The notes under the pieces are model-generated. The model was not told the origin of the DNA. It saw nothing but the letters and a program-made list of their open reading frames with translations, and did not search any database. From Kiritimatiellia bacterium (GTDB lineage Bacteria; Verrucomicrobiota; Kiritimatiellia; RFP12; JBMNHG01), in the NCBI GenBank assembly GCA_050950285.1, contig JBMNHG010000003.1, positions 554,337-618,336 on the forward strand: 64,000 bases of DNA. Direction: 5' to 3'. The number at the start of each line of letters is the position of its first letter. Positions within the stretch are counted from its first letter, which is position 1. Position numbers and translations under genes: made by a program. Below are positions 13,301 through 26,927 of this stretch, piece by piece.

Positions 13301-15022
13301 TACACCATCACGCAGACCAACGGGATAGTTCTCTCCCGTACCGTCATCCGCGACCGGTACCGCCGCCACCTTGTCACGATCATCACCAACAGCGTTAACG
13401 GTGTGCCATTGCAGCGGCTTGGCTACACCTACGACATTCTCGACCGAGTTATCAGGCGCAATGCCGACACCTTTGATTACAACGCCAGAAGCGAAGTCAC
13501 GGCGGCGGACATTGGAGCCACCGCCAGCCGCTACGCCTATGATCATATCGGTAATAACATCTGGACGTCATGCAACGGCGCCACTAATAATTACACGGCA
13601 AACAGTCTCAACCAGTACACCAACATCGCCAACATTGCCGGCAACACCCAGCCCGTGTACGACCTCGACGGCAACCTGCTTTCAAACGGCGACTGGTCCT
13701 ACACCTGGGATGCGGAGAACCGCCTCGTCGCCGCCTATTCCAACGGCCTGTGCGTTGTCTCCAACGCCTACGATCATCTTAGCCGCCGCGTGCTGAAATT
13801 CACGCCAACCGCCACGCACACTTGCATCTATGACGGCTGGGATTTGGTGCAAGAGACGATTCAAAATCAGCAGTCCGCAACCACAAATCATTACGTCTGG
13901 GGGCACGACTTCTCCGGTACGCTGCAGGGCGCGGGCGGCGTCGGCGGACTGTTGGCCGTCTCGCTCAATGGTGCATGGTACTTCCCATTCTATGATAATA
14001 ACGGCAACATCATAGCCTATGCTGACGAACAGAGTGCCATCGTGGCGGAATATACCCACGACGCCTTCGGCCGCACCATCGCCAAGTCCGGCACAATGGC
14101 CGATTCATTCCGTCATCGTTTCTCGACCAAGTATTACGACTCCGAGACCGGGCTCTACTACTACGGCTACCGCTTCTACGCGCCGGAACTGATGCGGTGG
14201 CTGAACCGGGATCCGATTGAGGAAAGGGGTGGTGTCAATGTTTACGCCTACTGCCGGAATTCTCCCGTCATCCTCCTTGACTGGCTTGGTCTTCTCGACA
14301 TAGATGTCATGTTCTATGGCACTGCGCTAACCGATATCCTTCCGTTCTTGGGCGGTCGTACGGTTGGCAATTACTACATGGATTTCATCGCAAACAGCCT
14401 TGGCATCGCCAATCGGTACCGGCAGAACCAAGGACAGGGGGCCTCCGGGGCGCGCACCTTTATACTGCGAACTATTGATGTGAATGGAGACATGGTTATT
14501 ACAAAGGATGAAGTACGGGATCTCAACCTGAAACTGATTGGGTACAGTTGGGGTGCCATCACAGCTATCAACATAGCCCACGATTTGAGCAAGTCGAACG
14601 AACGAGTCGAAAGCTACTACTTATGTACAAAGGTTCCTGTCAAACGACTCATCACGATAGATCCAATCACGTTTTTGAACCCTGCGAGATCAATCAAGAA
14701 CAACGTTCAAGTCTTTCGGAACTACTATCAGCAGAAGGGGGGCGAATATCGAGTGTGGCTGAGGCGCACAGATGGCATCGTCGAATTCGAGGACGGGGGC
14801 ACTGTCCTGAGTCAAGGCCTCTGCGGGGCACGCATTGGCGGCATTGACGTTGACGTTAATGCCGTGCAAGTCCGCATTGACACAGACCGCCGAGGCGTTC
14901 AGGTGAGCGACGGCATTCCTGGTGGAATGTTGTACAGTGAGATGTGGAGTTACGGTGACTTTATCAACCACGACATGGTTCCCTGGTACGTGAAGGCGGA
15001 TGTCATCAATGACTATTTCTAA
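7397..15022 (+). CDS. RHS/YD-repeat polymorphic toxin, 2541 aa: N-terminal TM segments, DxDxDG (TSP3-like) Ca-binding repeats, RHS core, C-terminal alpha/beta-hydrolase-like tip
   Basis: YD repeats; RHS-associated core FSTKYYDSETGLYYYGYRFYAPELMRWLNRDPIEERGG; PVILLDWLGL cleavage-type motif; low-GC tip with IGYSWG. Confidence 0.93.
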   Translation: MGLLQSIRHWMFAGACLLAGVPLLFCLGAWAGTSPGLRRLFRALGDRFRSLSPSVRAVLSALLVVATLHGVPKVPPGGNALFHGPPPAGMVSGGLPARPARGPSSGPRLTAGQYRAGVALARVATNPSPALASVPSNAVVHAPWTRYGVAEDTFWLPATNWSFTLGTNRVGGLHVSSSGTLSFGWPKGSPRARRMPDGSGLDFLAPLQTSLGIVPPAGRFWHAPTASNSLLLAWQDVFAGRDAGLPVTFQAELFPSGDFVYRYDLSRLSATNAPPATNWVVGAQHGGGGETFAFGGTGVLVHGLELHWRAFGMLDPDVADHDGDGLSTYDEVMVHGTDPRLPDTDLDGVLDGAEVAAGTSPLLRDTDGDGLVDGSDPDPLSPTPSDDLDGDGIPDACETAKFGGTNAVDSLDFDPGGTGFPLSTKIAAGMDPFAEASAPTNLAWNLASLKLFDAFRCDLPADGTNRVYERTFTIDRKGGWQQYFLSASSNAPAGWSLDGMALEWADSEGGSGTATASPPDDSLWLPVSTNALQLTLALRATSTNSTCPQPLYLLAWAPGVLVDGAGAAAEINGARCQAVEWTGGGTSVGVRYDFSNRPCRAAPSEMEQAALLDPFPGEARLAFTPNDAFTGGSLAAKAPGIYDVPGCTIAPAPPPARRGARGAGGRDDPGEGPVERLLFFDPRIAYGDGRHGGCGTTLFFDAATGDYEPASDYPLDSRCLREGWRQDATGGHPCDCRAEIGYGDPALAAYFDETVEDDGLRATGTIFFDGRPVWSGEAIHRVGERCHDPFYDECGDCASGCADGDCDGLEGDGLGSLAFRIPLGIPRDGQVSGFLWFRATEPLLVAPATFNLLARDDAAVAESAAGGTRTIACSDARGRTVVVEPIAHGVRITVRKTAGDELEHVWEIANVGGSPRQVAFKKISRRDNVMRDVVYSYRGDGEWACFDNIAQTSEQVLRTDTLDDGPHGVLREERIVRDAAGAILSRDVAESRRFGCGRDATLRQTYHATLGLEPDGAPGLVEDHASYWTDDAHPRRNGRPRLVWGESRPWSYQAWDAEGREILRLDPLDGSAAPLDFVDQSDPTDLTDLSDHPGLAAIATVSDYAPLAGDSNPLAAFDSVRTESRHLVRDGAATCIGRTWHVHTVGTDTVGRAFATVKTVRACSPDAAFGDPGNAVSTITRFDADAPGIPLLLRGRPLESTDEDGVTTACDYALGDYDPATRTFAPGGAKTALRTIARRWYRSNPSDTSDLTIQDAAHGTTLYSATLLHATGATLDWQAHLYDDKNRLRSTLYSDGSISTNAYSCCRLLWTQDRDGFKTLRSAETGKDHLYYAMEEVSLAQLPGYGYGHRTTMHFMDALGRETNTVVTAVGEPGDAVTPDCGTLGFTASETTTYPDGIGDHAVHVDRRGVRTVTTRTSHADREESVTLTFSPANPDVCVVASTNIAYRNGRSIAIRSWDGGWTRETSWSDYAADGTRRSFSVTEASDSPNAVTNQISHSDFLGRTVATLRPGAAGAWLVTSNAYDGATSRLVRSETTGQPATTYLYDERGEMAATVQSGVKTASETRYENIAGAWWRVDVRSTSREGVTNAVATTRRQLTGLSNALRSRTVNTGPNGSTTTESGSYNPQTCEVTTVRATDSATPLVTVSKFGRSIRRETLRETVYNYFDPLGRVAYSETRDPETGVYSHFRWSGLDESDNETRYGIYYYDDDLHVTGSRTFDAFGRETSRTDALGNTVTNTYDALGRPVAATGAAYPVAYGYDAAGRMAALATARGNAAGFAALAVQLAGGASLASLASPASLDLTAWNYDHATGLATNKVYADGSAVSYAYTPDGKPLRTAWARGAWKENAYNPDGLLTGVSYSDATPAAALGYDAFQRPAFASNAVARYAYQNSHLGTATNETAMVGGDTATLTRTLDHRHRLAELRSGNAAPVHYGYDSESRLSTVSNDAFSASYAYTDDAWDAGYTITQTNGIVLSRTVIRDRYRRHLVTIITNSVNGVPLQRLGYTYDILDRVIRRNADTFDYNARSEVTAADIGATASRYAYDHIGNNIWTSCNGATNNYTANSLNQYTNIANIAGNTQPVYDLDGNLLSNGDWSYTWDAENRLVAAYSNGLCVVSNAYDHLSRRVLKFTPTATHTCIYDGWDLVQETIQNQQSATTNHYVWGHDFSGTLQGAGGVGGLLAVSLNGAWYFPFYDNNGNIIAYADEQSAIVAEYTHDAFGRTIAKSGTMADSFRHRFSTKYYDSETGLYYYGYRFYAPELMRWLNRDPIEERGGVNVYAYCRNSPVILLDWLGLLDIDVMFYGTALTDILPFLGGRTVGNYYMDFIANSLGIANRYRQNQGQGASGARTFILRTIDVNGDMVITKDEVRDLNLKLIGYSWGAITAINIAHDLSKSNERVESYYLCTKVPVKRLITIDPITFLNPARSIKNNVQVFRNYYQQKGGEYRVWLRRTDGIVEFEDGGTVLSQGLCGARIGGIDVDVNAVQVRIDTDRRGVQVSDGIPGGMLYSEMWSYGDFINHDMVPWYVKADVINDYF

Positions 15023-15519: not shown

Positions 15520-17493
15520 ATGCAAAAACGGATTAAAGACACTCCAGTTGGCAACAGCCACCTCGGCACCGCCACCAACGAGACGGCGACGGTCGGCGGC
15601 GACACCGCGACCCTGGCCCGCACCCTGGACCACCGCCACCGCCTGGCGGAACTGCGCAGCGGCAATGCCGCCCCCGTCCATTACGGCTATGACTCGGAAA
15701 GCCGGCACTCCGCCGTCTCCAACACCGCCTTCCGCGCCACCTATGCCTACACCTCCGACGGCTGGGATGCGGGGTATTCGGTGGCCTTGACGAATGGCGT
15801 CGTACTTGCCCGCAACCTGACCCGCGACCCCTACCGCCGCAGTCTGGTAAAAGCCATCACCAACAGCGTCAGCGGCGTGCCGTACAACCCGCTGGTCTAC
15901 ACCTACGACCTGCTTAACCGTGTCACTTCACGCAACACGGACACCTTCGATTACAACGCCAGAAGCGAAGTCACGGCGGCGGACATTGGAGCCCACACCA
16001 ACCGCTACGCCTTCGACAACATAGGCAACGCGCTGTGGGCCTCGCTTAACTCCGTCACGAACATCTACACCGCCAACGAACTGAACCAGTATTTCCTGAT
16101 TTCCAATCATGTCAATCATGTCAATCCTGTCCAAATTTCTCCCGTATACGATTTAGACGGCAATATGACGTGGGACGGGCGTTTCAACTACACGTATGAT
16201 GCGGAAAACCGCCTTGCCGCCGCCTATTCCAACGGCCTGTGCGTAGTCTTCAACGCCTACGATCATCTTAGCCGCCGCGTGTTGAAAATCTCACGCGGAG
16301 GCACGGAGACACGGGGATTTGTCTACGACGGCTGGCTGCCGGTTCTCGAAATCGTCGCCACCGCCGCGGGAGTGACCACCAACCACTACGTCTGGGGACG
16401 CGATTTGTCTGGAAGCATGCAAGGCGCGGGCGGCGTCGGCGGCTTGCTGGCGGTACAGATGGGTAGCGCATGGTACTTCCCGTTCTACGACAACAACGGG
16501 AACATCACGGCCTATGTGAACGAACAGGGCGCAATCGTGGCGGAATATACCTACGATGCCTTCGGCCGCACCATAGAGGCAACGGGTCTGCTTGCCGACG
16601 CCTTCCGCCACCGTTTCAGCACCAAGTACTACGATGCCGAAACCGGTTTCTACTACTATGGATATCGTTTCTACTCGCCAACGCTCCATCGCTGGCTCAA
16701 TCGTGATCCCATAGGAGAACAAGGCGGGTTAAATCTCTATGGCTTCGTTTACAATGCGCCAACACGTCATATTGACCGACTAGGGTTGTTAGTCCGCAGT
16801 GATATTGAGAAGGGACGTGTATTATACTCATGTAATTGTGGCTGGATTGATATTGTTCATTCCAAGGGAGCTGTGCCAAACGCCGCCGCTATATTAAGCG
16901 GTGTCGTGGGAAATCTAGGCGGAACGCCATCCGAGATAACCTTTGCCCTGACTCAAACTCTTGGAGGGCTTCAGTTTGGTTACGCAATCAACATTCCCGA
17001 AACGCCCAAGAAATTTTCTGAAAAAGATGCCATCGAAATAGCCCTTGGCATTTGGATGCATGCCAATGTTACTTTTGAACAATGGCAAGGTGGTACGGGA
17101 GCCGAGCTGTTTAAAAAGTCTTCGTTCTCCGTCGAAGACATGCCGAGTGACTATCTCGCCATGATGATGGCTGTCCGTGATCGTTATGGTCCAGGCAAAG
17201 GCATTTCTTGGTCCGAGATCAAGTCGCAATGCCATTTCCTTGATATTGAGGATTCTCTCTGGGTTTACAATTGTGGAATTGGTCCAAAAAAGAATCACTT
17301 TCAAACTCCAGAACTTTGGGAGAGCAGGCCAACGCTTGAATGGTGCTGGCCTTGTCAACGAGTAATGTCATTAACAGGTGGGCAGGTGTTTCCCAAAATA
17401 CCGGACATTTTCAGCGCTTATAATCCTGCTGCCCAAGTCGACATGTTTAAACAAACGATGAAAAAAGACATCAACCCCATTCCCGGGCTTTGA
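15520..17493 (+). CDS. Orphan RHS-core + toxin-tip cassette 1 (tip DUF4056-like)
   Basis: Nucleotide homology to the main rhs starts at 15553 (equivalent to 13079); core ends IDRLGL; distinct low-GC tip. Confidence 0.85.
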   Translation: MQKRIKDTPVGNSHLGTATNETATVGGDTATLARTLDHRHRLAELRSGNAAPVHYGYDSESRHSAVSNTAFRATYAYTSDGWDAGYSVALTNGVVLARNLTRDPYRRSLVKAITNSVSGVPYNPLVYTYDLLNRVTSRNTDTFDYNARSEVTAADIGAHTNRYAFDNIGNALWASLNSVTNIYTANELNQYFLISNHVNHVNPVQISPVYDLDGNMTWDGRFNYTYDAENRLAAAYSNGLCVVFNAYDHLSRRVLKISRGGTETRGFVYDGWLPVLEIVATAAGVTTNHYVWGRDLSGSMQGAGGVGGLLAVQMGSAWYFPFYDNNGNITAYVNEQGAIVAEYTYDAFGRTIEATGLLADAFRHRFSTKYYDAETGFYYYGYRFYSPTLHRWLNRDPIGEQGGLNLYGFVYNAPTRHIDRLGLLVRSDIEKGRVLYSCNCGWIDIVHSKGAVPNAAAILSGVVGNLGGTPSEITFALTQTLGGLQFGYAINIPETPKKFSEKDAIEIALGIWMHANVTFEQWQGGTGAELFKKSSFSVEDMPSDYLAMMMAVRDRYGPGKGISWSEIKSQCHFLDIEDSLWVYNCGIGPKKNHFQTPELWESRPTLEWCWPCQRVMSLTGGQVFPKIPDIFSAYNPAAQVDMFKQTMKKDINPIPGL

Positions 17494-18203: not shown

Positions 18204-18779
18204 ATGCAAAGTAAAAACGAACAGACAATTATGTGCCTAACTGCCGCTGTTGGGGCTCTTTTTTTGGTGCCGGGATGCCTGGCGAAACAGAAGTCTTCCG
18301 TCGCGGTTGAACAGCATCGCCAAAGCATTTGTCTCAACAAAAAAACCACAAACTGGTTTCTCGACCCCTCATTGATTTACTCTGCGCTCGTTGTACGGAA
18401 CTCCGCTGATACGAACGGTTGCATTGCAGCTTTTACATACGACATGTCTATTGGAGCTCCATATGCTCATTGGATAGTCTATAAACCTCAAGAAATAGTT
18501 ATAATGGTTGAAATGACCTTAGGCGTCATGGAAGCCTTGCCAGAAGGAAGGATGGGTGAAATGACTTTGCTTTCTGTTCCAAACTCAATGAATCGTCGCA
18601 TCGTCTTTTCAGATACTTTGACCAACAAGGACATAGCTGCTGACTTTAATTATACAGAGAAAGATATTCCGAAGTGCTTGCAAAGCAATACGGAACCTCT
18701 TTCCGAAGACGACCCTTTTCAAAAGCATTCCGGTAAAAATTCTTCTGATACTGCTGCTGACATATGGCCAACGGATTAA
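18204..18779 (+). CDS. Orphan immunity-like lipoprotein
   Basis: MQSKNEQTIMCLTAAVGALFLVPGC lipoprotein-like signal; low GC. Confidence 0.6.
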   Translation: MQSKNEQTIMCLTAAVGALFLVPGCLAKQKSSVAVEQHRQSICLNKKTTNWFLDPSLIYSALVVRNSADTNGCIAAFTYDMSIGAPYAHWIVYKPQEIVIMVEMTLGVMEALPEGRMGEMTLLSVPNSMNRRIVFSDTLTNKDIAADFNYTEKDIPKCLQSNTEPLSEDDPFQKHSGKNSSDTAADIWPTD

Positions 18780-19598
18780 AACATCTGCTCACTATCGGCT
18801 CCATCGTCTGCACGAATGCCGCCTTCCGCGCCACCTACGCCTATACCTCCGACGGCTGGGATGCGGGGTATTCGGTGAACTTGACGAATGGCGTCGTACT
18901 TGCCCGCAACCTGACCCGCGACCCCTACCGCCGCCACCTTGTCACGGTCATCACCAACAGCGTCAGCGGCGTGCCGCACAATCCGCTGGCCTACACCTAC
19001 GACCTCCTCGACCGCGTCACGTCACGAAACGCCGACACCTTCGATTACAACGCCAGAAGCGAAGTCACGGCGGCCATCATCCAGCCCGCCCACACCAGCC
19101 GGTACGCCTACGACAACATAGGCAACGCGCTGTGGGCCTCGCTTAACTCCGTCACGAACATCTACACCGCCAACGAACTGAACCAGTATTTCCTGATTTC
19201 CAATCATGTCAATCATGTCAATCCTGTCCAAATTTCTCCCGTATACGATTTAGACGGCAATATGACGTGGGACGGGCGTTTCAGCTATGCGTATGATGCG
19301 GAAAACCGCCTCGTCGCCGCCTATTCCAACGGCCTGTGCGTAGTCTTCAACGCCTACGACCACCTGAGCCGCCGCGTGTTGAAAATCTCACGCGGAGGCA
19401 CGGAGACACGGGGATTTGTTTATGACGGCTGGCTGCCGGTTCTCGAAATCGTCGCCACCGCCTCGGGAGTGACCACCAACCACTACGTCTGGGGCAAAGA
19501 CCTATCCGGCACGCTCCAGGGCGCGGGCGGTGTCGGCGGACTCCTGGCGGTACAGATGGGCGACGCATGGTATTTCCCGTTCTACGATAATAACGGCA
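18764..19598 (+). CDS. Orphan RHS cassette 2, exon 1 (upstream of the group II intron)
   Basis: Near-identical to the cassette 1 core; stops at YDNNG-A where the intron begins. Confidence 0.85.
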
Positions 19599-21530
19599 GT
19601 GCGCCAAGCGAAGCTCGGCGCTTCTTGCGGGGTGGAAGTCCCCGCCGAGTAAGGACCAGCCATCCACTCGTACCGAGTGTTGGCACTATGGAAGAGGAGT
19701 CGAATCCGAATGAAGTAGTGTAAGCGTACACAGGGAACTTCGCAGGCCGCAGGGAGGATGCACCCTCCCGAAGCGGTTCAGCCCCGTTAATTGATCATGC
19801 GCAGGGCGACATGTTTGCCGACATGGAAGCCAGCAACAAGGACGCGCAACCGGCTTGCGTCCGGTGACTGCGCCGGGGTCTACGGCGCGCGGCATGCGGA
19901 GAGAGAAGCGAACGGGAACTTGGGAGACCCGCCGCCGTCCGCGTCCGCGAGGGCGCGGTAGCGGCCGCCGAGCCGGAAGGGAAGGCGGCGCGACGCGGCG
20001 GCGGGAGTCAGACCGCCCCATAGTACTCCGAGACGGGCGAGCCGGTCACACGGGGAAGGGGGCGGCGGGGCTGCGAAGCCCGCAAAGGGAACAGGAAAGA
20101 TGGACACGACAGGCTGTCAAACACTGCAAACCTCACTGCGGGGAATAGCGGATCGGGCGCGACGCGACCCGAAGGCGCGATTCCGCGACGTGTACAGGCT
20201 GCTCAACGAGGCGAACCTGCGCGAATGCTTCCGGGCGTTGCGAAGGGACGCCGCGCCGGGGATTGACCGGGTGACGTTCGACGACTACGAACGCGACCTC
20301 GACGCCAACCTCGCGGCGTTGGTCGAGCGGCTCAAGCACAAGCGGTACCACGCCCGACTGGTGCGCAGGGTGAACATTCCAAAGGGGGGCGGGAAACTGC
20401 GTCCCCTCGGAATCCCTGTGCTGGAGGACAAACTTCTGCAAATGGCCGTGGCGAAGGTGCTAACGGCGATCTACGAAGAGGACTTCCTGCCGGCGAGCCG
20501 GGGCTACCGTCCCGGCGGCGACGCCCGCGAGGCCAGCCGCGAATGGGCGGCGAGGCTCGGCGGGGGGAGCTATGCGTGGGTGGTCGATGCGGACATCAAG
20601 GGCTTCTTCGAGCACGTCGATCACGACTGGATGCTCAGGATGCTGGAGCTTCGCATCGACGACAAGCCGTTTCTGCGGCTGGTGCGCAAATGGCTCAAGG
20701 CGGGGGTGCTCGAAACGGACGGACGGGTGCTGCATCCGACGGAGGGGACGCCCCAAGGCGGGGTGGTCTCGCCGGTGCTGGCGAACGTCTACCTGCACTA
20801 CGCGCTGGATCTCTGGTTCGACCGCGTGGTCAGGAGGACGACGCCGGGCCGATGCGCGATGCTGCGCTACGCCGACGACTTCGTGGTCGCCTTCGAGCGG
20901 CGCGAGGACGCGGAACGCTTCCTTGGGGAACTGCCCGGGCGACTGGGCAAGTTCGGCCTGGAGCTGTCGGGGGAGAAGACGCGGCTGGTGCGCTTCGAGC
21001 GGGGCAACCCGTCGGGCGACAACGGCGGCTTCGACTTCCTGGGGTTCCAGTACCACTGGGAGCGTACGCGAAACGGACGCTGGAAGGTGCAGCGCCGGAC
21101 GGCTCCGAGCCGTCTCCGGCGGTCGGTGGAACGCTTCGCCGAGTGGATCAAGGCCAACCGGGGCGAACGCCTGCCCGTTCTCATGGAACGGCTGGGGCGC
21201 AAGCTCGCGGGGTACTGGCAGTACTACGGCGTGACGGGCAACGGGCGCAGCCTGTGCAAGTTCTGGAGGCAGGTGGTGGCTGGGCTCTACAAGTGGCTCA
21301 ACCGCAGAAGCCAGAAGCGGGGCTTGACCTGGGTCCGTCTCAATGCGATCCTCAAGCGCCACGGGGTGCCGGGACCGCGGATCACCGAGAGCGGGCAGAT
21401 GCTGTTTTCCTTCATGGGGGCGCGTTGAAGACCGAGTGCAAAGCGAGCAGTCCCGAAGAGCCCGGTGCGGGAATTCCGCACGCCGGGATCCGTGCGGGGG
21501 GCGCCCGGCAACGGGCGTCCCTACCGCGAT
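19599..21530 (+). mobile_element. Group II intron (RT-encoding, IIB-like, no endonuclease domain), 1932 nt
   Basis: 5' GTGCG; domain V GAGCCCGGTGCGGGAATTCCGCACGCCGGGATC; domain VI ending CCCTACCGCGAT with bulged A at -8. Removal restores GGC A|AT ATC ACG GCC TAT (GNITAY). Confidence 0.95.
20100..21428 (+). CDS. ltrA: Group II intron reverse transcriptase/maturase
   Basis: APGIDRVT, IPKGGGKLRPLGIP, DADIKGFF, GTPQGG, RYADD, FDFLGF, domain X GYWQYYG; no C-terminal HNH. Confidence 0.95.
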   Translation: MDTTGCQTLQTSLRGIADRARRDPKARFRDVYRLLNEANLRECFRALRRDAAPGIDRVTFDDYERDLDANLAALVERLKHKRYHARLVRRVNIPKGGGKLRPLGIPVLEDKLLQMAVAKVLTAIYEEDFLPASRGYRPGGDAREASREWAARLGGGSYAWVVDADIKGFFEHVDHDWMLRMLELRIDDKPFLRLVRKWLKAGVLETDGRVLHPTEGTPQGGVVSPVLANVYLHYALDLWFDRVVRRTTPGRCAMLRYADDFVVAFERREDAERFLGELPGRLGKFGLELSGEKTRLVRFERGNPSGDNGGFDFLGFQYHWERTRNGRWKVQRRTAPSRLRRSVERFAEWIKANRGERLPVLMERLGRKLAGYWQYYGVTGNGRSLCKFWRQVVAGLYKWLNRRSQKRGLTWVRLNAILKRHGVPGPRITESGQMLFSFMGAR

Positions 21531-22534
21531 ATATCACGGCCTATGTTGACGAGAACGGCACCATCGTGGCCGAGTACACATACGACGCCTTCGGCCGCAC
21601 CATCGCCGCCACTGGCTCCATGGCCGACACCTTCCGCCATCGCTTCAGCACGAAGTACTATGAAACGGAAACCGGGCTCTACTACTACGGCTACCGTTTC
21701 TACGCGCCGAAGCTGATGCGGTGGCTGAACCGGGATCCGATTGATGAGGAGGGTGGGCTAAACCTCTATGGTTTCTGCGGAAATGATAGTGTGAACCGGC
21801 TGGATGCGATGGGAATGGCAACCGTCAAGGTTTACGCATGGAAACCAACAACCCTCTGGGAGAAAATCAAGGGAGAGGGCAACTACAATATGGTCGAGAT
21901 ACATTCAGCAGAAGAAGTTCCTGTTGAATACGGTAAGTTTTCTGGGAACACTTGGGGGGCTTTCGACGATAATCATCTCGTAGTTGCCGCTTGCGATTGT
22001 GCCGACAGCATAGACATCTTTCCAACGATAATCATCCGAGCGGGATTACCGAAGCAGGGTGTTCCAGGCGCAAAATATCTTTTCCGAAGGCATCAGGCGT
22101 GTGGTGGGGAAGTTACATCAGGTGGGGGGTATGTTTTGCCTAGCGGACAACTCATTGAAGGTTCCGTTCTTGCACATGAGAGAGGGCATGCACAAGCGTT
22201 TTTCGAATTGGTGCTGCCTCGTTTTCGAAAGGCTGTGGAAAATCACTTTCCTGGAAAACTAAAGAGCAAAGATACCAAGGAGGTTCGACGGCTCTTTCTG
22301 CAAGCACGTAAAGACACGATGAAAGAGCATATTGAAATGGTTTTCAAACGTGAATTTGAATGGTATCGCCGTAACGGATTCACTATCACTGAACCTGCGT
22401 CGCCGGGAGGTTTTTATGAAGCAACACCACTAGCATCCCATAGGCTTGCCGAAATCACTCCTGCCTTCCCCCATTGGAAGTCAGCGCACGCGCTCAAGAC
22501 GGGAGCGTCGGGCCGGATTGAAAAAAAGGGCTGA
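21531..22534 (+). CDS. Orphan RHS cassette 2, exon 2: core end + HExxH metallopeptidase-like tip; C-terminus altered by the IS
   Basis: ITAYVDENG...RLDAMGM, then low-GC tip with AHERGH. The native end YEATR* is replaced by read-through into the IS from 22428. Confidence 0.85.
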
Positions 22535-24001
22535 CCTCCCGGCCGTCTGCCTGTAGCCTACAGGCATTATGAAAAAAAAAGCGACCAAGGCGCGTAAACG
22601 CGCAACCAAGAGGCCAGCGAGAACATCGTACACCACCCTGCGCCAGATCGTCCAGTGGATTCCCGCGGGATTGCCGGACAAGATCGCGCGCGACATCGGG
22701 GCGGACATCCGCGGATTCTCCTGCGCCAGCCATGTGCTGGCGCTGCTCTACGGCCATATCGCCCGCGCGGGCAGCCTGAACGAGATCTGCGACGCGGCCC
22801 GGCTGCACGAGCCGGAGCTGAACCGCATCCGGGGCGCGACGGCCCCGAAGCGCAACACCTTCTCCAACGCCAACCGGAGGCGCGACCCGGAGATCGCGGA
22901 GCGGCTCTACTGGGAGGTGTTCGAGCACCTCCGGACCATCTGCCCGTCCTTCACGCAGTACAAGAAGCACAAAGGCTTCATCTTCCGCCTGAAGCGCGGG
23001 ATATTCGCCATCGACTCGACCACGCTGAAGCTCACGCTCGACTCGATCGACTGGGCCAGGCACCGCCGGAAGAAGGCCGCCGCCAAAACCCACATGGCCC
23101 TCGACGTCGGCAGCAGGCTGCCGACGTTCGCGGTCGTGGAGGACGCCGCGCACCACGACTCGACGCGGGCGGACGCGCTGTGCGCGGGGCTGAAGGACGG
23201 CGACGTGCTGCTGGCGGACCGCGCCTACGTCGACTTCCTCTTCCTGCACGGACTCGCCGCGCGCGGCATCTTCTTCGTCCTGCGGGAGAAGGAGAACATG
23301 GACTTCGAGGTGCTGGAGGAGAGAGGGCATCCGGACCGGCGCATACTCAAGGACCAGACCATACGCCTGCGGGGCAGGCTGACGGCGGGAAAGTACCCCG
23401 GGCCCCTGCGCCGCGTCGCCGCCGTCGTCGAGGTGGACGGGCAGGATCGGGAAATGACGTTCATCACCAACCATTTCGCGTGGAGCCCCCGCACCGTCTC
23501 CGAGCTCTACCGCGCCCGGTGGGTCATCGAGTCGTTCTTCAAGGAACTCAAGCAGACGCTCCAGCTCAAGGATTTCGTCGGGTACAACGAGAACGCGGTC
23601 AAGTGGCAGGTCTGGGTCGGGCTGCTGGCGCATCTGCTGCTGCGCTTCCTCAAGCACGTCTCGGAATGGGGACTGAGCTTTTCCCGGCTCGCCGGGGTCG
23701 TCAGGTCCGCCGTCTGGATGAAGATCGACCTGCTCGACGCCCTGCGGAAGTATGGGACAGCAGGCGGCCCAAAGCGCCCTGTAATTTCCGGGAAACAGCT
23801 CTATTTCCAAGGATTCGAGCCATTCGCGAGCCGGCCCGTGGGATAGCACATGCCCCAAAACCCCTGTTTTCGGGCATCCGGGCCGATCGCGCAGGCAAAC
23901 ACGTTTTCCGGGAACGCCTTTGAAATCGCGATAAATCCCTGCAAATCAATGGGGGAAAGGGGGCAATATGCCCGTTTTCAGCCGCCTATGGGATGCTAGT
24001 G
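22428..24001 (+). mobile_element. IS4-family insertion sequence, 1574 bp
   Basis: Perfect 18-bp TIR CACTAGCATCCCATAGGC (22428-22445 / 23984-24001); 9-bp TSD AAGCAACAC (22419-22427 / 24002-24010). Confidence 0.95.
22569..23846 (+). CDS. IS4-family DDE transposase
   Basis: AIDSTT, ADRAYVD, LYRARWVIESFFKELKQ (YREK motif). Confidence 0.95.
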   Translation: MKKKATKARKRATKRPARTSYTTLRQIVQWIPAGLPDKIARDIGADIRGFSCASHVLALLYGHIARAGSLNEICDAARLHEPELNRIRGATAPKRNTFSNANRRRDPEIAERLYWEVFEHLRTICPSFTQYKKHKGFIFRLKRGIFAIDSTTLKLTLDSIDWARHRRKKAAAKTHMALDVGSRLPTFAVVEDAAHHDSTRADALCAGLKDGDVLLADRAYVDFLFLHGLAARGIFFVLREKENMDFEVLEERGHPDRRILKDQTIRLRGRLTAGKYPGPLRRVAAVVEVDGQDREMTFITNHFAWSPRTVSELYRARWVIESFFKELKQTLQLKDFVGYNENAVKWQVWVGLLAHLLLRFLKHVSEWGLSFSRLAGVVRSAVWMKIDLLDALRKYGTAGGPKRPVISGKQLYFQGFEPFASRPVG

Positions 24002-24442
24002 AAGCAACACGGTAAAATCATCAGAATTACAGCCATGTTTCTACTGCTAATCGTCACGCACATTTTGGTTTACGTCGCTGGGATTTATCGCTTTTATAAA
24101 AAAGATTTCTGCAAGTCGGAAACGGGCATGCTCCCAATAGCCTTGGCGACAAATGCGGAATTCATGGCAGCATGTGAAACAATCCGAAACTCAACAAATA
24201 CGGTTGAAGTATACAACGCTGCAACTCTTTTTGTTCCCCCTCTTTCAAAATTCCTACAGGAGCATCCCGATGGTATCCATATTGCCGTTATAATTAATTT
24301 ACTCGGATGGAAGGAACCGGTTATGGGGCATAATATGATCTACTTTTTGAAACAAGAGGACTGCCAAGTTTACTATATGAAATTTACTTCTTTGCGCCCT
24401 CACCATATAAATTCTGTTTCTATTGGCATCGGCGAGATGTGA
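23999..24442 (+). CDS. Putative immunity protein for cassette 2 (start codon now supplied by the IS end)
   Basis: The original ATG AAG CAA CAC lies at 22416; after the IS it reads GTG AAG CAA CAC GGT. N-terminal TM helix; low GC. Confidence 0.7.
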   Translation: MKQHGKIIRITAMFLLLIVTHILVYVAGIYRFYKKDFCKSETGMLPIALATNAEFMAACETIRNSTNTVEVYNAATLFVPPLSKFLQEHPDGIHIAVIINLLGWKEPVMGHNMIYFLKQEDCQVYYMKFTSLRPHHINSVSIGIGEM

Positions 24443-24557
24443 CTATAGAGTCCGGCAAGCCGTGCTGGATTGAGATTAGGGGTTCCAAGCAGATTTCGGA
24501 TTCTGGCAACTGCTGCAACTATAAGGACTCTTCACCTGACGAGCGGGGGTGGTACTG

Positions 24558-24869
24558 ATGGTCTATCGTCAAGTTCGGATGATTCTATTGGGCTTCATGT
24601 TTTGCCTGTCGGGTTGTCGCAATGAACATGCAGTACAACCCGACAAGGAAATTGGCTTGGCGGCACTGCAAGACTATTGCCTCGGCGAACGATTGACTGT
24701 CGAGGATTTTGGCCATGCCCGGGTTTACACTGATGCAAAATATGACGTTTGTGTCGAATACATAACAAAACCCAATGTCGTTCCGCGGCATGTCTTGCTT
24801 CTATTCATTAAGGATGGTCGCATTGTTGAAAAACAACGCGATATTCAAGACGTGTCGGTGCTACAATGA
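24558..24869 (+). CDS. Orphan immunity-like lipoprotein
   Basis: MVYRQVRMILLGFMFCLSGC lipobox; TGATG-coupled to an upstream stub. Confidence 0.65.
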   Translation: MVYRQVRMILLGFMFCLSGCRNEHAVQPDKEIGLAALQDYCLGERLTVEDFGHARVYTDAKYDVCVEYITKPNVVPRHVLLLFIKDGRIVEKQRDIQDVSVLQ

Positions 24870-25376
24870 CTCCAACCATGTACATGGCTTTTCGCCCGTT
24901 GCTCGTCAATAATCTTTGGGTGTCGGTCAGCGCCGTCACGAACATCTACACCGCCAACGAACTGAACCAGTATTTCCTGATTTCCAATCATGTCAATCAT
25001 GTCAATCCTGTCCAAATTTCTCCCGTATACGATTTAGACGGCAATATGACATGGGACGGGCGTTTCAGCTATGCGTATGATGCCGAGAACAGGCTTGCCG
25101 CCGCCTATTCCAACGGCCTGTGCGTAGTCTTCAACGCCTACGACCACATGAGCAGACGCGTGTTGAAAGTCACCCCAACCGCGACGCACACCTACCTCTA
25201 TGACGATTGGAATCTGGTGCAGGAAACAATTTCAACCGCATCCGGCACGACAACCAACCATTACGTTTGGGGACGTGATTTGTCTGGAAGTATGCAGGGT
25301 GCCGGCGGCGTCGGCGGCTTGCTGGCGGTACAGACGGGCGGCATGTGGTACTTCCCCTTCTATGATAACAACGGAA
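24866..25376 (+). pseudogene. Orphan RHS cassette 3 fragment (5' exon of the second intron; rest of core and tip deleted)
   Basis: Homology to cassettes 1/2 from about 24932; ends at YDNNG-A. Confidence 0.85.
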
Positions 25377-26073
25377 GTGCGCCAAGCGAAGCTCGGCGCT
25401 TCTTGCGGGGTGGAAGTCCCCGCCGAGTAAGGACCAGCCATCCACTCGTACCGAGTGTTGGCACTATGGAAGAGGAGTCGAATCCGAATGAAGTAGTGTA
25501 AGCGTACACAGGGAACTTCGCAGGCCGCAGGGAGGATGCACCCTCCCGAAGCGGTTCAGCCCCGTTAATTGATCATGCGCAGGGCGACATGTTTTCCGTC
25601 ATGGAAGCCAGCAACAAGGACGCGCAACCGGCTTGCGTCCGGTGACTGCGCCGGGGTCTACGGCGCGCGGCATGCGGAGAGAGAAGCGAACGGGAACTTG
25701 GGAGACCCGCCGCCGTCCGCGTCCGCGAGGGCGCGGTAGCGGCCGCCGAGCCGGAAGGGAAGGCGGCGCGACGCGGCGGCGGGAGTCAGACCGTCCCATA
25801 GTACTCCGGGACGGGCGAGCCGATCACACGGGGAAGGGGGCGGCGGGGCTGCGAAGCCCGCAAAGGGAACAGGAAAGATGGACACGACAGGCTGTCAAAC
25901 ACTGCAAACCTCACTGCGGGGAATAGCGGGTCGGAAGTCGGGCGCGGTTCCCTGTCAGGGGAACGCGACGGCGACCGAGTGCAAAGCGAGCAGTCCCGAA
26001 GAGCCCGGTGCGGGAATTCCGCACGCCGGGATCCGTGCGGGGGGCGCCCGGCAACGGGCGTCCCTGCCGCGAT
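25377..26073 (+). mobile_element. ORF-less group II intron derivative, 697 nt
   Basis: Near-identical to 19599-21530 except that 1278 nt of the RT ORF (20152-21429) are replaced by a 43-nt hairpin (25930-25972). Domain V is intact; ends CCCTGCCGCGAT. Confidence 0.93.
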
Positions 26074-26141
26074 ACGGCGTACTTGGAAATGCTCAGGATA
26101 CGAGAAGGACCCCTGCCTACCTCCTCCGAAGGAGTTCTGAT

Positions 26142-26579
26142 ATGACTTCGCATTGTTTTTCGGTTGTCCAGCTGGCGAGTTCGTTGCCCATGATACTACT
26201 CCTGTTCAGCTCTTTGGGGTGCAAGAGCAGGGAGTACATCGCGCGAGAGCCTGCCGTCCATGAAATGTTGCGGGAAATGCGTGTTCCTGCGATTGACATG
26301 CGAGAAGCGCATCTTCAGGATGTGGTCGAGTATCTCAACGCCGCGCTAAATGAATACGGTCTAGGCGAAGCAAGAAAAGAAACGATCATCGTATTCGAGT
26401 GTCCCGCGCACTTGTCTCGGCGAAAACTGAATCCCGTCCCAATTGCCAAGGACAAATCGATTGACACTGGGATGACGAAGATCGTGAGTGTCATGGATAT
26501 TGCAGATGAAGTCTGCTCGCGCGCAAACGTCAACCTCGTCATCAAGAGCAACCGCGCAATCTTCACCGGCAAGCGATGA
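26142..26579 (+). CDS. Orphan immunity-like lipoprotein with an STN/secretin-N-like domain
   Basis: GGAG RBS; LLLFSSLGC lipobox; VPAIDMREAHLQDVVEYL...VSVMDIADEVCSRANVNLVI pattern. Confidence 0.55.
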   Translation: MTSHCFSVVQLASSLPMILLLFSSLGCKSREYIAREPAVHEMLREMRVPAIDMREAHLQDVVEYLNAALNEYGLGEARKETIIVFECPAHLSRRKLNPVPIAKDKSIDTGMTKIVSVMDIADEVCSRANVNLVIKSNRAIFTGKR

Positions 26580-26927
26580 AAATCACCTGCGGCTACGCCT
26601 GAGACCCCGTCGGCAGCCGCACGAGCGCGACCGGGTACGACGAAAACGGCGCGCCGTTTTTGGCGGGGTCTACGCTTTTCACCGGTCACGCGGGTGCATG
26701 TCGCTTCGGTTCCTTGCTTGTTTCCACCAGGAAGGAAGTGCACATCACTGCGTGACTTTTCCAAAACCCAGTCGTTGCGCCCGCCAGTCGCGCACGGTTG
26801 CGCATTGACGCTCCGGCGATGATGTGGTTAACTTGACTCTTTATGCCTGCAAAGAGCCCCATGTTCAACCGGCAGCCGGACCGACTGAAGCGGATCGGCT
26901 TGTTGGACCGTGCCAGCGAGAAGCGGG

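What the first reader, a model, noticed from the sequence alone, without database searches (positions are those of the whole stretch)
19810..25604. EBS1 loop co-varies with each intron's own 5' exon (compensatory change)
Seen: in otherwise near-identical domain I sequences, one stem-loop differs. Copy 1 has CATG-TTTGCCGA-CATG (TGCCG at 19816-19820), complementary to its exon end ...ACGGCA (5 bp). Copy 2 has CATG-TTTTCCGT-CATG (TTCCGT at 25594-25599), perfectly complementary to its exon end ...ACGGAA (6 bp). The exon difference is the synonymous Gly codon GGC vs GGA. Known: EBS1-IBS1 pairing sets target specificity. Inference: the two introns are retargeted to synonymous variants of the same RHS codon, so the ORF-less copy was selected for function or inserted independently rather than passively duplicated.
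Basis: partly seen in the sequence, partly recalled or inferred. Interest (0 to 1): 0.85.

Follow-up and report, generated by a model that had tools for sequence, protein, structure and literature searches.

The report
Group II intron EBS1 tracks exon
Two copies of a self-splicing mobile intron inside bacterial RHS toxin genes differ in the small loop that pairs with the upstream exon, and each loop fits its own exon, which is a clear new example of a well-known targeting rule rather than a new mechanism.

Summary
Window 19599-21530 (W1, 1932 nt, carries its reverse-transcriptase gene) and 25377-26073 (W2, 697 nt, no ORF) are group II introns (Rfam RF02005, 106 bits each). Their first 553 nt differ at 5 positions. 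Two of these (19817 G/T, 19821 A/T) lie in one hairpin loop, and both make W2 complementary to its own exon end (6 of 6 pairs; W1 has 5 of 6).

The loop is EBS1. Across 25 copies from this genome, relatives and metagenomes, 126 of 150 loop-exon cells pair, against a shuffle mean of 95.5, and 0 of 20000 shuffles reach that. All 6 pairs show compensatory changes.

- W2 was not passively duplicated. The exon next to it is 65% identical between the copies; the intron is 99% identical.
- Covariation is not strict. Two other copies at GGA-type exons keep a G·A mismatch.
- "Selected for function" is doubtful now. W2 alone has G in place of the bulged branch-point A, and its 3' flank is not RHS.

EBS divergence between related intron copies, ORF-less ones included, is already described (PMC2882425). 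This is a new member of a known kind. The wider picture is the more interesting part: about 10 copies sitting in YD-repeat motifs of orphan RHS modules, with recombinant junctions.

The parts
18764..19598 (+). 5' exon of W1: an orphan RHS/YD-repeat module ORF ending ...WYFPFYDNNG (site A)
   Evidence: ORF list, translation, paralog BLAST
19593..19598 (+). IBS1 of W1, ACGGCA
   Evidence: Pairs 5 of 6 with EBS1
19588..19591 (+). Candidate IBS2 of W1, TAAT (exon -11..-8)
   Evidence: Pairs with ATTG at 19790-19793. The helix is 64.7% paired across 20 copies, which is weak support.
19599..21530 (+). Intron W1, 1932 nt, GTGCG...CGAT, full length
   Evidence: Rfam RF02005 at 106.1 bits. The boundaries restore the reading frame G|N-ITAYVDENG.
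19790..19793 (+). Candidate EBS2 (ATTG) in the internal loop 5' of the EBS1 hairpin
   Evidence: Alignment A1 columns 212-215
19810..19825 (+). EBS1 hairpin of W1: stem CATG/CATG, loop TTTGCCGA, EBS1 = 19816-19821 (TGCCGA)
   Evidence: The stem has compensatory changes in 2 of 20 sequences.
20100..21428 (+). Intron-encoded protein, 442 aa, with RT and maturase (X) domains and no endonuclease domain found
   Evidence: Pfam RVT_1 at 114 bits; GIIM at 21.2 bits, below its cut-off of 23. Matches to group II RTs in the PDB at 1e-39.
21458..21490 (+). Domain V of W1
   Evidence: Fold. The identical W2 sequence aligns to the RF00029 domain V consensus.
21493..21528 (+). Domain VI of W1, with a bulged UA. 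The presumed branch-point A is at 21523, 7 nt before the 3' end.
   Evidence: Fold. The sequence is identical in 9 of 10 copies.
21531..22534 (+). 3' exon of W1: the end of the RHS core (…DPIDEEGGLNLY…) plus a C-terminal domain
24866..25376 (+). 5' exon fragment of W2: a 170-codon RHS remnant ending ...WYFPFYDNNG. IBS1 ACGGAA is at 25371-25376.
25377..26073 (+). Intron W2, 697 nt, ORF-less
   Evidence: Rfam RF02005 at 105.9 bits, alignment
25588..25603 (+). EBS1 hairpin of W2, loop TTTTCCGT, EBS1 = 25594-25599 (TTCCGT)
25930..25973 (+). W2-specific segment that replaces the ORF in domain IV. It is predicted to form a hairpin.
   Evidence: It occurs once in the genome.
26066..26066 (+). G at the position of the bulged branch-point A
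   Evidence: W2 is the only one of 10 copies with this letter, and it changes the predicted domain VI bulge. Contigs of runs X1 and X2 that carry W2's unique 3' flank cover it with no differing letter.
14001..14006 (+). Unoccupied site A in the main RHS gene, IBS1 ACGGCA
   Evidence: C3:568342
16496..16501 (+). Unoccupied site A in the second module, IBS1 ACGGGA
   Evidence: C3:570837
19119..19124 (+). Unoccupied site B (…YDNIG|N), IBS1 TAGGCA, 474 nt upstream of W1

Best explanation
The variable loop is EBS1 of a multi-copy group II intron whose protein lacks an endonuclease domain. The intron lives in the conserved ...(Y/F)DxxG|N motif of RHS/YD-repeat genes.

EBS1 (6 nt) pairs with the last 6 nt of the 5' exon (IBS1). 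This pairing is used for splicing and, in reverse, to choose the DNA insertion site. W2 is an ORF-less derivative. It depends on the protein made by sibling copies, 6 of which have an intact 442-aa ORF.

Most likely, a W2 ancestor carrying EBS1 UUCCGU, two changes away from the majority UGCCGA, reverse-spliced into a GGA variant of site A. Only a matching RNA inserts efficiently, so the match was selected at the insertion step. Later the copy lost its branch-point A, and recombination with another copy or a deletion cost it its RHS 3' exon. It is probably now immobile and decaying.

Shown here: the intron's identity, the EBS1 assignment, the covariation, the non-passive origin, the branch-site change, and sequence exchange between copies.

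Inferred: the order of events, mobilisation in trans, and selection at insertion rather than afterwards.
For: - Two RF02005 hits of 106 bits each, with the loop in a terminal hairpin of domain I.
- Across 25 copies, 126 of 150 EBS1-IBS1 cells pair, against a shuffle mean of 95.5; 0 of 20000 shuffles reach that.
- On alignment A1 (20 sequences), all 6 pairs have changes on both sides and 85.8% of cells pair. With the partner slid by 1-3 columns, the whole tested structure pairs at 28-43%, against 83.5% in register.
- Relatives with quite different exons match: UGGGGU/GCCCCA, CGAGGA/UCCUCG, UACCGA/UCGGUA, UAACGG/CCGUUG.
- Identity between W1 and W2 is 137 of 210 in exon -210..-1 and 548 of 553 in the intron.
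- An empty site, C2:228226, has the same 30 nt as W2's exon, including ACGGAA|A.
- Six intact IEP ORFs are present in the genome.
- W2 keeps domain IV up to about 54 nt past the IEP start codon.
- The head-to-tail pair C8b-C8c fits homing into an occupied site, as reported for RmInt2 (PMC4615759, passage read).
- T. elongatus introns form families defined by their EBS sequences, and the ORF-less members sit at well-matched sites (PMC2882425, passages read).
Against: - C6 and C2a sit at GGA-type exons with a G.A mismatch at -2, and C8a has a mismatch at -5. Either homing tolerates mismatches or EBS1 is overwritten by gene conversion.
- Within this genome alone the shuffle test is weak: 641 of 20000 shuffles for 8 distinct pairs, and 1690 of 20000 without the tandem copy.
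- W2 is a single copy, so nothing shows that the UUCCGU lineage ever moved.
- W2 lacks the branch A needed for lariat formation.
- Most perfect sites are empty: 15 of 16 ACGGCA sites and 30 of 34 site-B homologs. Homing is therefore inefficient.
- W2's candidate EBS2 pairs no better than that of other copies (A.C at -8).
- The T at 25595 was not seen in the public contigs laid.
Confidence: 0.55

Rival explanations
1. Compensation after insertion. An intron with the majority EBS1 (UGCCGA) came to lie next to an ACGGAA exon, by homing with mismatches, by intron-intron recombination, or by gene conversion of the exon. Selection for splicing of the host RHS module then fixed G->U and A->U in EBS1.
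For: - C6 shows the supposed intermediate state, UGCCGA next to ACGGAA.
- Both W2 changes restore or extend pairing.
- Copies and exons are mosaics.
Against: - W2's host is a 170-codon remnant without an RHS 3' exon, so there is no visible gene whose splicing could be selected.
- C6 and C2a have intact IEPs and RHS 3' exons, yet they have not compensated.
- W2 has since lost its branch A.
Confidence: 0.2
2. Chance. The two loop differences are neutral substitutions in a decaying copy and happen to be complementary to the exon.
For: - W2 carries other private changes (intron nt 418, the branch site, a rebuilt domain IV).
- The own-genome shuffle test is weak.
Against: - Two of five differences in 553 nt fall in 6 nt, and both are the one base that gives a Watson-Crick pair (my estimate is about 1e-4).
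- All four departures from the majority allele in exon-flanked copies of this genome improve pairing.
- Family-wide covariation is strong.
Confidence: 0.08
3. Assembly artefact or strain mixture. The W2 loop letters could come from a mis-assembled repeat or from another strain's copy, and may not be linked to this exon.
For: - At 25595, every contig laid from the three runs that showed a change there (X1, X2, X15) read G, and none read T.
- The intron is a repeat of about 10 copies.
Against: - The tool says that contigs drop rare variants.
- The genome is in 12 contigs, with all copies resolved in distinct flanks.
- W2's other private letter (26066 G) and its 3' junction are carried by contigs of runs X1 and X2 with no differing letter.
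- Random errors would not be expected to create two complementary bases.
Confidence: 0.07

Closest known systems
Thermosynechococcus elongatus group II intron families F1-F6 (Mohr, Ghanem and Lambowitz 2010, PMC2882425; passages read)
   Same: - Many closely related copies in one genome, divided by their EBS sequences into groups that sit at matching IBS sites.
- ORF-less derivatives sit at well-matched sites and are mobilised by sibling IEPs.
- Some copies sit at poorly matched sites.
   Different: - Here the divergence is micro-scale, 1-2 nt within one target motif, not six distinct target families.
- Only one ORF-less copy is present in this genome.
- The IEP lacks an En domain.
- The targets lie inside protein-coding YD repeats rather than mostly in intergenic DNA.
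- Nothing has been tested experimentally.
RmInt1 / RmInt2 / Sr.md.I1 of Sinorhizobium (PMC4615759; passages read)
   Same: - En-less IEP of about 420-440 aa.
- Related introns with shifted target requirements; homing despite EBS2/IBS2 mismatches.
- Head-to-tail double insertion, explained there by EBS3 U pairing with the intron's first G. Here 3' exons start with A, and the tandem C8b-C8c exists.
   Different: - The class D C-terminal motif quoted in that paper (LX3AX3PXLF[V/A]HW) is not visible at the end of this IEP, which ends ...SGQMLFSFMGAR.
- Those targets are IS elements, not RHS genes.
Retargeted group II introns (targetrons). The principle is recalled; only the title and abstract of PMC4075523 were seen in a search listing.
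   Same: Changing EBS1/EBS2 to match a new IBS redirects insertion. W2 against W1 is a natural two-nucleotide version of this.
   Different: This case is natural, not engineered, and the retargeting has not been shown experimentally.
Rhs main gene plus orphan toxin-module arrays. General knowledge; PMC3150448 and PMC3482391 were seen only in search listings.
   Same: The window holds a long RHS gene followed by shorter core-fragment-plus-C-terminal modules.
   Different: Here several module junctions are occupied by a group II intron. I found no paper reporting that.

Membership tests
Group II intron (ribozyme) | 5' GUGYG and 3' AY termini at boundaries that restore the host reading frame | tested here: met
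   The termini are GTGCG...CGAT in W1 and W2. Joining the W1 exons gives ...YDNNG-N-ITAYVDENG... in frame.
Group II intron (ribozyme) | Domain I-IV secondary structure | tested here: met
   RF02005 group-II-D1D4-6 scores 106.1 and 105.9 bits against a gathering score of 49, over the full model 1-225.
Group II intron (ribozyme) | Domain V, a 34-nt catalytic hairpin | tested here: inconclusive
   The predicted fold gives the expected bulged hairpin with AGC. RF00029 matched W2 only, at 30.5 bits against a gathering score of 40, and placed its domain VI part in the downstream flank. W1 gave no RF00029 hit at E<=1.
Group II intron (ribozyme) | Domain VI with a bulged branch-point A 7-8 nt from the 3' end | tested here: met
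   W1 and 8 other copies have a bulged UA with 7 nt following the A. W2 does not meet this: it has G at 26066.
Group II intron (ribozyme) | EBS1-IBS1 pairing between a domain-I loop and the end of the 5' exon | tested here: met
   126 of 150 cells pair across 25 copies, and 0 of 20000 shuffles reach that. All 6 pairs have changes on both sides.
Group II intron (ribozyme) | EBS2-IBS2 pairing | tested here: inconclusive
   Candidate columns 212-216 pair with exon -8..-12 in 64.7% of cells. Three of 5 pairs have changes on both sides, and many copies pair at only 3 positions.
Group II intron (retroelement) | Intron-encoded RT with maturase domain X inside domain IV | tested here: met
   RVT_1 scores 114 bits. 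GIIM scores 21.2 bits, just under its cut-off of 23. The best PDB matches are group II RTs at 1e-39. The ORF is intact in 6 copies and frameshifted in C8a and C8b.
Group II intron (retroelement) | Splicing and retrohoming activity | not testable with these tools
   The RNA runs laid held only short contigs, mostly 90-95% alike, and no exon-exon joint.
En-minus bacterial classes (C, D, E, F; PMC4424553, passage read) | IEP without a D/En (HNH) domain | tested here: met
   The IEP is 442 aa, and only RVT_1 and GIIM were found. The exact class was not determined. The class D motif is not visible. Use of EBS2 and homing into a defined coding motif, rather than insertion after terminator motifs or into attC sites, argue against class C; this is inference.
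Actively mobile ORF-less derivative driven in trans (as in T. elongatus) | Sibling copies with an intact IEP in the same genome | tested here: met
   Six intact 442-aa ORFs.
Actively mobile ORF-less derivative driven in trans (as in T. elongatus) | Intact ribozyme, including the branch site | tested here: not met
   W2 has G in place of the bulged A; it is the only one of 10 copies to do so.
Actively mobile ORF-less derivative driven in trans (as in T. elongatus) | Several copies of the ORF-less form at matching sites | tested here: not met
   The W2-specific domain IV segment occurs once in the genome. The ORF-less relatives in G086 and G040 are only 77% identical to W2, and G086's EBS1 does not match its flank.

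The most novel reading that the evidence does not exclude
The intron copies may act as portable homology that reshuffles RHS toxin modules.

- C8a joins a site-B 5' exon to a site-A 3' exon, which is a deletion-type junction.
- C6 joins a site-A 5' exon to a site-B 3' exon followed by a second B-to-A interval, which is a duplication-type junction.
- W2, C8c and C12p join the intron to non-RHS DNA.
- The RHS homology of W2's module starts at the site-B junction.

Together with pervasive exchange between copies, this suggests that a group II intron lineage specialised on the YDxxG|N motif drives rearrangement, and possibly toxin-tip exchange, in orphan RHS arrays. Micro-variation in EBS1 would let copies persist at codon variants of the motif.
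Probability: 0.3. Interest if true: 0.6.

Novelty: new member of a known kind. Interest (0 to 1): 0.4.

Why it matters
The finding gives a clean natural example of how one or two substitutions in EBS1 move a group II intron between synonymous codon variants of a repeated protein motif. It also shows the limits of that rule: mismatched copies persist, most perfect sites stay empty, and the best-matched copy has a broken branch site.

The wider setting may be of more use than the two-copy comparison. An En-less intron family is specialised on YD-repeat (RHS) genes in this genome, and similar copies occur in contigs whose record titles name Kiritimatiellia, Lentisphaerae and Chthoniobacteraceae bacteria. 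The family includes ORF-less derivatives, head-to-tail pairs and junctions that look like intron-intron recombination. Bacterial group II introns are usually described as lying outside housekeeping genes, and ORF-less ones as rare (PMC4424553, passages read). A lineage that lives inside toxin-gene repeats could therefore bear on how polymorphic toxin loci rearrange.

Tried and rejected
- **Transcript evidence for splicing.** One search for sequencing runs and one lay of runs X1, X2, X15 and X16 on 24400-26700. All were assembled contigs. The RNA runs gave only short pieces, mostly 90-95% alike, and no exon-exon joint, so nothing can be said about splicing. The three "joints" listed are short skips with "between: not known" and sides of 35 nt or less; I did not use them.
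- **W2's EBS1 letters outside this assembly.** At 25595 the contigs read G in the three runs that showed a change there (X1, X2, X15), and none listed T. The tool warns that rare variants are dropped, so I do not count this as absence.
- **RF00029 (domains V-VI).** It hit only W2, below the gathering score, with domain VI mis-placed in the flank. It was not used as support for the 3' end.
- **EBS2.** I tried several registers by eye. Only 19790-19793 against exon -11..-8 is consistent across copies, and it is weak. C2a, L012, L052 and L057 pair poorly there.
- **Intron class.** The PDB sequence search does not discriminate (IIC, IIB and IIA RTs all score about 1e-36 to 1e-40). The class D motif is absent. 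The class remains undetermined.
- **Literature.** Searches for group II introns together with Rhs, YD repeat, Rhs element, H-rpt, polymorphic toxin or RHS repeat. Among the papers listed, the only ones holding "group II intron" together with "rhs" were on plant and algal organelle topics, where the match to "rhs" is unrelated to bacterial RHS. This covers only the held open-access library.
- **Idea dropped.** I considered RT template switching as the origin of the tandem pair C8b-C8c. Homing into an occupied site through EBS3 U pairing with the intron's G1 is already documented for RmInt2 and needs fewer assumptions.
- **Rows left out:**
  - Seven 5' intron fragments without an EBS1 hairpin (L024, L030, L031, L056, L058, L060, L063) were left out of the EBS1 counts, as were contig-end copies too short to reach EBS1.
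  - Sequences identical over -16..+300 were counted once in alignment A1.
  - L034, L045 and L046 (divergent hairpins) and L062 (only 12 nt of exon) are in the count but not in A1.

Full report
**1. What is at the coordinates**

The window holds two group II introns on the + strand. Rfam RF02005 (group-II-D1D4-6) matches 19635-19888 and 25413-25666 at 106.1 and 105.9 bits, against a gathering score of 49.

- W1 runs from GTGCG at 19599 to ...CCGCGAT at 21530 (1932 nt). Joining its exons restores ...WYFPFYDNNG-N-ITAYVDENG.... It carries a 442-aa ORF (20100-21428) with RVT_1 at 114 bits and GIIM at 21.2 bits, just under that family's cut-off of 23. No endonuclease domain was found. The best PDB sequence matches are group II intron RTs at 1e-39.
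- W2 runs from 25377 to 26073 (697 nt). It is the same intron without the ORF. Nucleotides 1-553 and the last 101 nt align to W1, and about 44 W2-specific nt (25930-25973) replace the ORF and are predicted to form a hairpin.

**2. The observation**

W1 has CATG-TTTGCCGA-CATG (19810-25) after an exon ending ACGGCA. W2 has CATG-TTTTCCGT-CATG (25588-603) after an exon ending ACGGAA.

Over intron nt 1-553 the copies differ at 5 positions (548 of 553 identical), and two of them (19817 G/T, 19821 A/T) are in this loop. W1 pairs 5 of 6 with its exon (A.A at -6). W2 pairs 6 of 6, all Watson-Crick. The exon difference is GGC against GGA, both Gly.

**3. Is the loop EBS1?**

In the RF02005 alignment the loop is the terminal loop of a hairpin inside the large domain-I multiloop. 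Rfam does not label it, so I tested it by covariation.

The genome holds 9 full copies, one copy cut by a contig end, and one internal fragment. Related copies came from relatives G034 and G040, from 13 genome contigs and from 20 metagenome contigs.

For the 25 copies that have both a 5' flank and the hairpin, loop positions 3-8 pair with exon -1..-6 in 126 of 150 cells. The shuffle mean is 95.5, and 0 of 20000 shuffles reach the observed value. For the 22 distinct pairs the figures are 109 of 132 and again 0 of 20000. The count includes clear misses: two introns that directly follow another intron (C8c 2 of 6, L046 0 of 6) and L047 (3 of 6).

Targets differ widely and the loop follows them:

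| EBS1 | IBS1 | Copy |
|---|---|---|
| UGGGGU | GCCCCA | L012 |
| CGAGGA | UCCUCG | L053 |
| UACCGA | UCGGUA | L051 |
| UAACGG | CCGUUG | L045 |
| UGCCAU | AUGGCA | L062 |

On MAFFT alignment A1 (20 sequences) the EBS1-IBS1 helix has changes on both sides in all 6 pairs and 85.8% of cells paired. The whole tested structure pairs at 83.5%, against 28-43% when the partner is slid by 1-3 columns, and 0 of 500 shuffles reach any of the five measures. The hairpin stem itself shows compensatory changes. The loop is EBS1.

A candidate EBS2 (19790-19793, ATTG) pairs with exon -11..-8. It is weakly supported (64.7% of cells) and is the same in W1 and W2.

**4. How far does the covariation go inside this genome?**

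| Copy | EBS1 / IBS1 | Pairing |
|---|---|---|
| W1 | UGCCGA / ACGGCA | 5 of 6 |
| W2 | UUCCGU / ACGGAA | 6 of 6 |
| C6 | UGCCGA / ACGGAA | 4 of 6 (G.A at -2) |
| C2a | UGCCGU / AUGGAA | 5 of 6 (G.A at -2) |
| C8a | UGCCGA / UAGGCA | 5 of 6 (G.A at -5) |
| C8b | UGCCGA / UUGGUA | 6 of 6 (two G.U) |
| C2b, C7 | UGCCUA / UAGGCA | 6 of 6 |
| C8c | UGCCUA, directly behind C8b | not applicable |

Every departure from the majority allele in an exon-flanked copy improves pairing with that copy's own exon: W2 at two positions, C2a, and C2b=C7. Three copies nevertheless keep a mismatch. The own-genome shuffle test is weak: 641 of 20000 shuffles for 8 distinct pairs, and 1690 of 20000 without the tandem copy. 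In the metagenome set one allele, UGCCAU, sits at three exon variants with 0-1 mismatch (L044, L048/L055, L062). The family therefore tolerates single mismatches.

**5. Passive duplication or not?**

Identity between the two loci:

- 228 of 240 in exon -450..-211
- 137 of 210 in exon -210..-1
- 548 of 553 in intron 1-553
- 100 of 101 in the last 101 nt

The 3' flanks are unrelated. A single duplication of exon plus intron is excluded.

The intron copies are mosaics of each other. Among 37 informative sites in the 8 full-length copies, 294 of 666 site pairs show all four gametes. Independent insertion and concerted evolution therefore cannot be told apart by sequence alone.

An empty site, C2:228226, has the same last 30 nt as W2's exon, followed by A. 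It shows what the pre-insertion site would look like.

**6. State of W2**

Features that look functional:

- 5' GTGCG.
- Domain V is identical to the other copies.
- Domain IV is retained to about 54 nt past the IEP start codon.
- EBS1 pairs 6 of 6.
- Six sibling copies have an intact IEP ORF: W1, C8c, C2a, C2b, C6 and C7. C8a and C8b are frameshifted.

Features that do not:

- The last 110 nt are identical in the 9 other copies. W2's only change there is A to G at 26066, which is the bulged A of the predicted domain VI, 7 nt before the 3' end. The predicted bulge changes shape as a result.
- Contigs of runs X1 and X2 that carry W2's unique 3' flank cover this position with no differing letter, so the change is not an error peculiar to this assembly.
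- W2's 5' exon is a 170-codon ORF whose RHS similarity begins at the position of the second insertion site (site B).
- The 3' flank has no similarity to RHS paralogs. By my reading of the sequence, it leads into a small gene with a lipoprotein-type signal peptide.

From recalled knowledge, branch-site mutants can still splice by hydrolysis but cannot form the lariat used for full reverse splicing. W2 is therefore probably immobile now.

**7. The setting**

The window is an RHS array:

- A 2541-aa RHS gene (7397-15022), with an empty site A at 14006.
- A second module, with an empty site A at 16501.
- A third module (18764-19598 | W1 | 21531-22534).
- An IS4-type transposase gene (22569-23846).
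- The remnant that carries W2.

Genome-wide, BLAST finds 29 homologs of site A (...FYDNNG|N). Three are occupied, and C2a adds a fourth, whose remnant was too short to be found. IBS1 is ACGGCA in 16, ACGGGA in 6 and ACGGAA in 3 of them. There are 34 homologs of site B (...YAFDNIG|N), of which 4 are occupied. Most perfect targets are empty, including site B at 19119-19124, 474 nt upstream of W1.

In the related contigs, many copies also sit after ...(Y/F)DxxG codons, or in one case after YGFRY. Some of those record titles name Kiritimatiellia, Lentisphaerae and Chthoniobacteraceae MAGs.

Several copies have flanks that do not belong together:

- C8a joins a site-B 5' exon to a site-A 3' exon, as in a deletion.
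- C6 joins a site-A 5' exon to a site-B 3' exon followed by a second B-to-A interval and an empty site A, as in a duplication.
- W2, C8c and C12p are followed by non-RHS DNA.

These junctions are what unequal recombination between intron copies would produce. That is inference.

**8. Mechanism and rivals**

Best reading (0.55): EBS1-IBS1 pairing selects the insertion site. A trans-mobilised ORF-less RNA with a two-nucleotide EBS1 variant inserted into a GGA variant of site A, and it later decayed.

Rivals:

- Compensation after insertion under selection for splicing (0.2). This is weakened because W2 has no intact host gene and because C6 and C2a remain uncompensated.
- Chance (0.08).
- Assembly artefact (0.07). 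This stays open because the laid contigs did not show T at 25595, although that tool drops rare variants.

**9. Comparison with what is known**

- Families of near-identical introns that differ in their EBS sequences and sit at matching sites, with mobile ORF-less members driven by sibling IEPs, are described for T. elongatus (PMC2882425, passages read).
- Target divergence among En-less relatives, and head-to-tail double insertions, are described for RmInt1/RmInt2 (PMC4615759, passages read).
- ORF-less bacterial introns are called rare and nearly always sit beside related IEP-encoding copies (PMC4424553, passages read).

The finding is a new member of a known kind. In two searches of the held library I found no paper on group II introns inside RHS/YD-repeat coding sequence. 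This says nothing about subscription journals.

**10. Verdict**

The EBS1 assignment is confirmed. "Retargeting" is plausible but not strict. "Selected for function" is not supported for W2's present state. Interest is moderate (0.4), mainly because of the RHS-specialised intron family and the recombinant junctions.

Noticed in passing
G000:C8:821093-824963 (loci L009 and L004); also L046/L049 and L066: Two full introns lie head to tail with no exon between them (C8b, then C8c). In metagenome loci L046 and L049 an intron directly follows the 3' end of another. In G086 (L066) an ORF-less intron is directly followed by GTGCGCC. This fits homing into an occupied site, as reported for RmInt2 (PMC4615759).
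   Followed up: partly
G000:C8:817490-819422 (C8a) and G000:C6:16155-18086 (C6): C8a has a site-B 5' exon and a site-A 3' exon. C6 has a site-A 5' exon and a site-B 3' exon, followed by a repeated B-to-A interval. These look like the deletion and duplication products of recombination between intron copies at the two sites.
   Followed up: partly
window 26066: W2 has G where the other 9 copies have the bulged branch-point A of domain VI. It is W2's only change in the last 110 nt.
   Followed up: yes
L066 (G086:C66:185-874) and L074 (G040:C96:6649-7034): Other genomes of the order hold ORF-less relatives, 77% identical to W2. Their domain IV deletions start and end at the same places as in W2 (after ...CTGCGGGGAATAGC/GGC, resuming at ...CGAGTGCAAAGCGAG), but the filler differs. 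Both keep the branch A. This could mean recurrent deletion at one boundary or an old ORF-less lineage.
   Followed up: partly
window 14001-14006, 16496-16501, 19119-19124: Unoccupied insertion sites with perfect or near-perfect IBS1 lie in the same array and orientation as W1. Genome-wide, 15 of 16 ACGGCA site-A homologs and 30 of 34 site-B homologs are empty.
   Followed up: yes
window 22569-23846: An IS4-type DDE transposase gene (DDE_Tnp_1, 96 bits) lies between the W1 module and the W2 remnant. Two small ORFs of unknown family follow it (23993-24442 and 24549-24869).
   Followed up: no
window 21830-22534: The C-terminal domain after the RHS core in W1's 3' exon has no Pfam match. It contains an HExxH-like motif (LAHERGHAQ), read by eye, so it may be a metallopeptidase-type toxin tip.
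   Followed up: no
L026, L027, L030, L038, L053, L056, L058 (G034 and metagenome contigs); G000:C8:824964 onward: Several relatives sit after a repeated ...CGTCCTCGTCCTCG sequence. L053's EBS1 (CGAGGA) matches it, while L047's does not. The same 12-mer, TCCTCGTCCTCG, starts the 3' flank of C8c in this genome. Some of these loci (L030, L038, L056, L058) are 5' intron fragments followed by unrelated sequence.
   Followed up: no
G000:C3:185471-185873: An internal intron fragment, 90% identical over intron nt 20-406. Its EBS1 hairpin stem is GCCA/TGGC and its EBS1 is TGCCGT, as in metagenome loci L059 and L061. It is a remnant of a second subfamily.
   Followed up: no
G000:C8 copies C8a and C8b: Single-base insertions, at about intron nt 1103 in C8a and 1130 in C8b, frameshift the reverse-transcriptase ORF.
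   Followed up: partly
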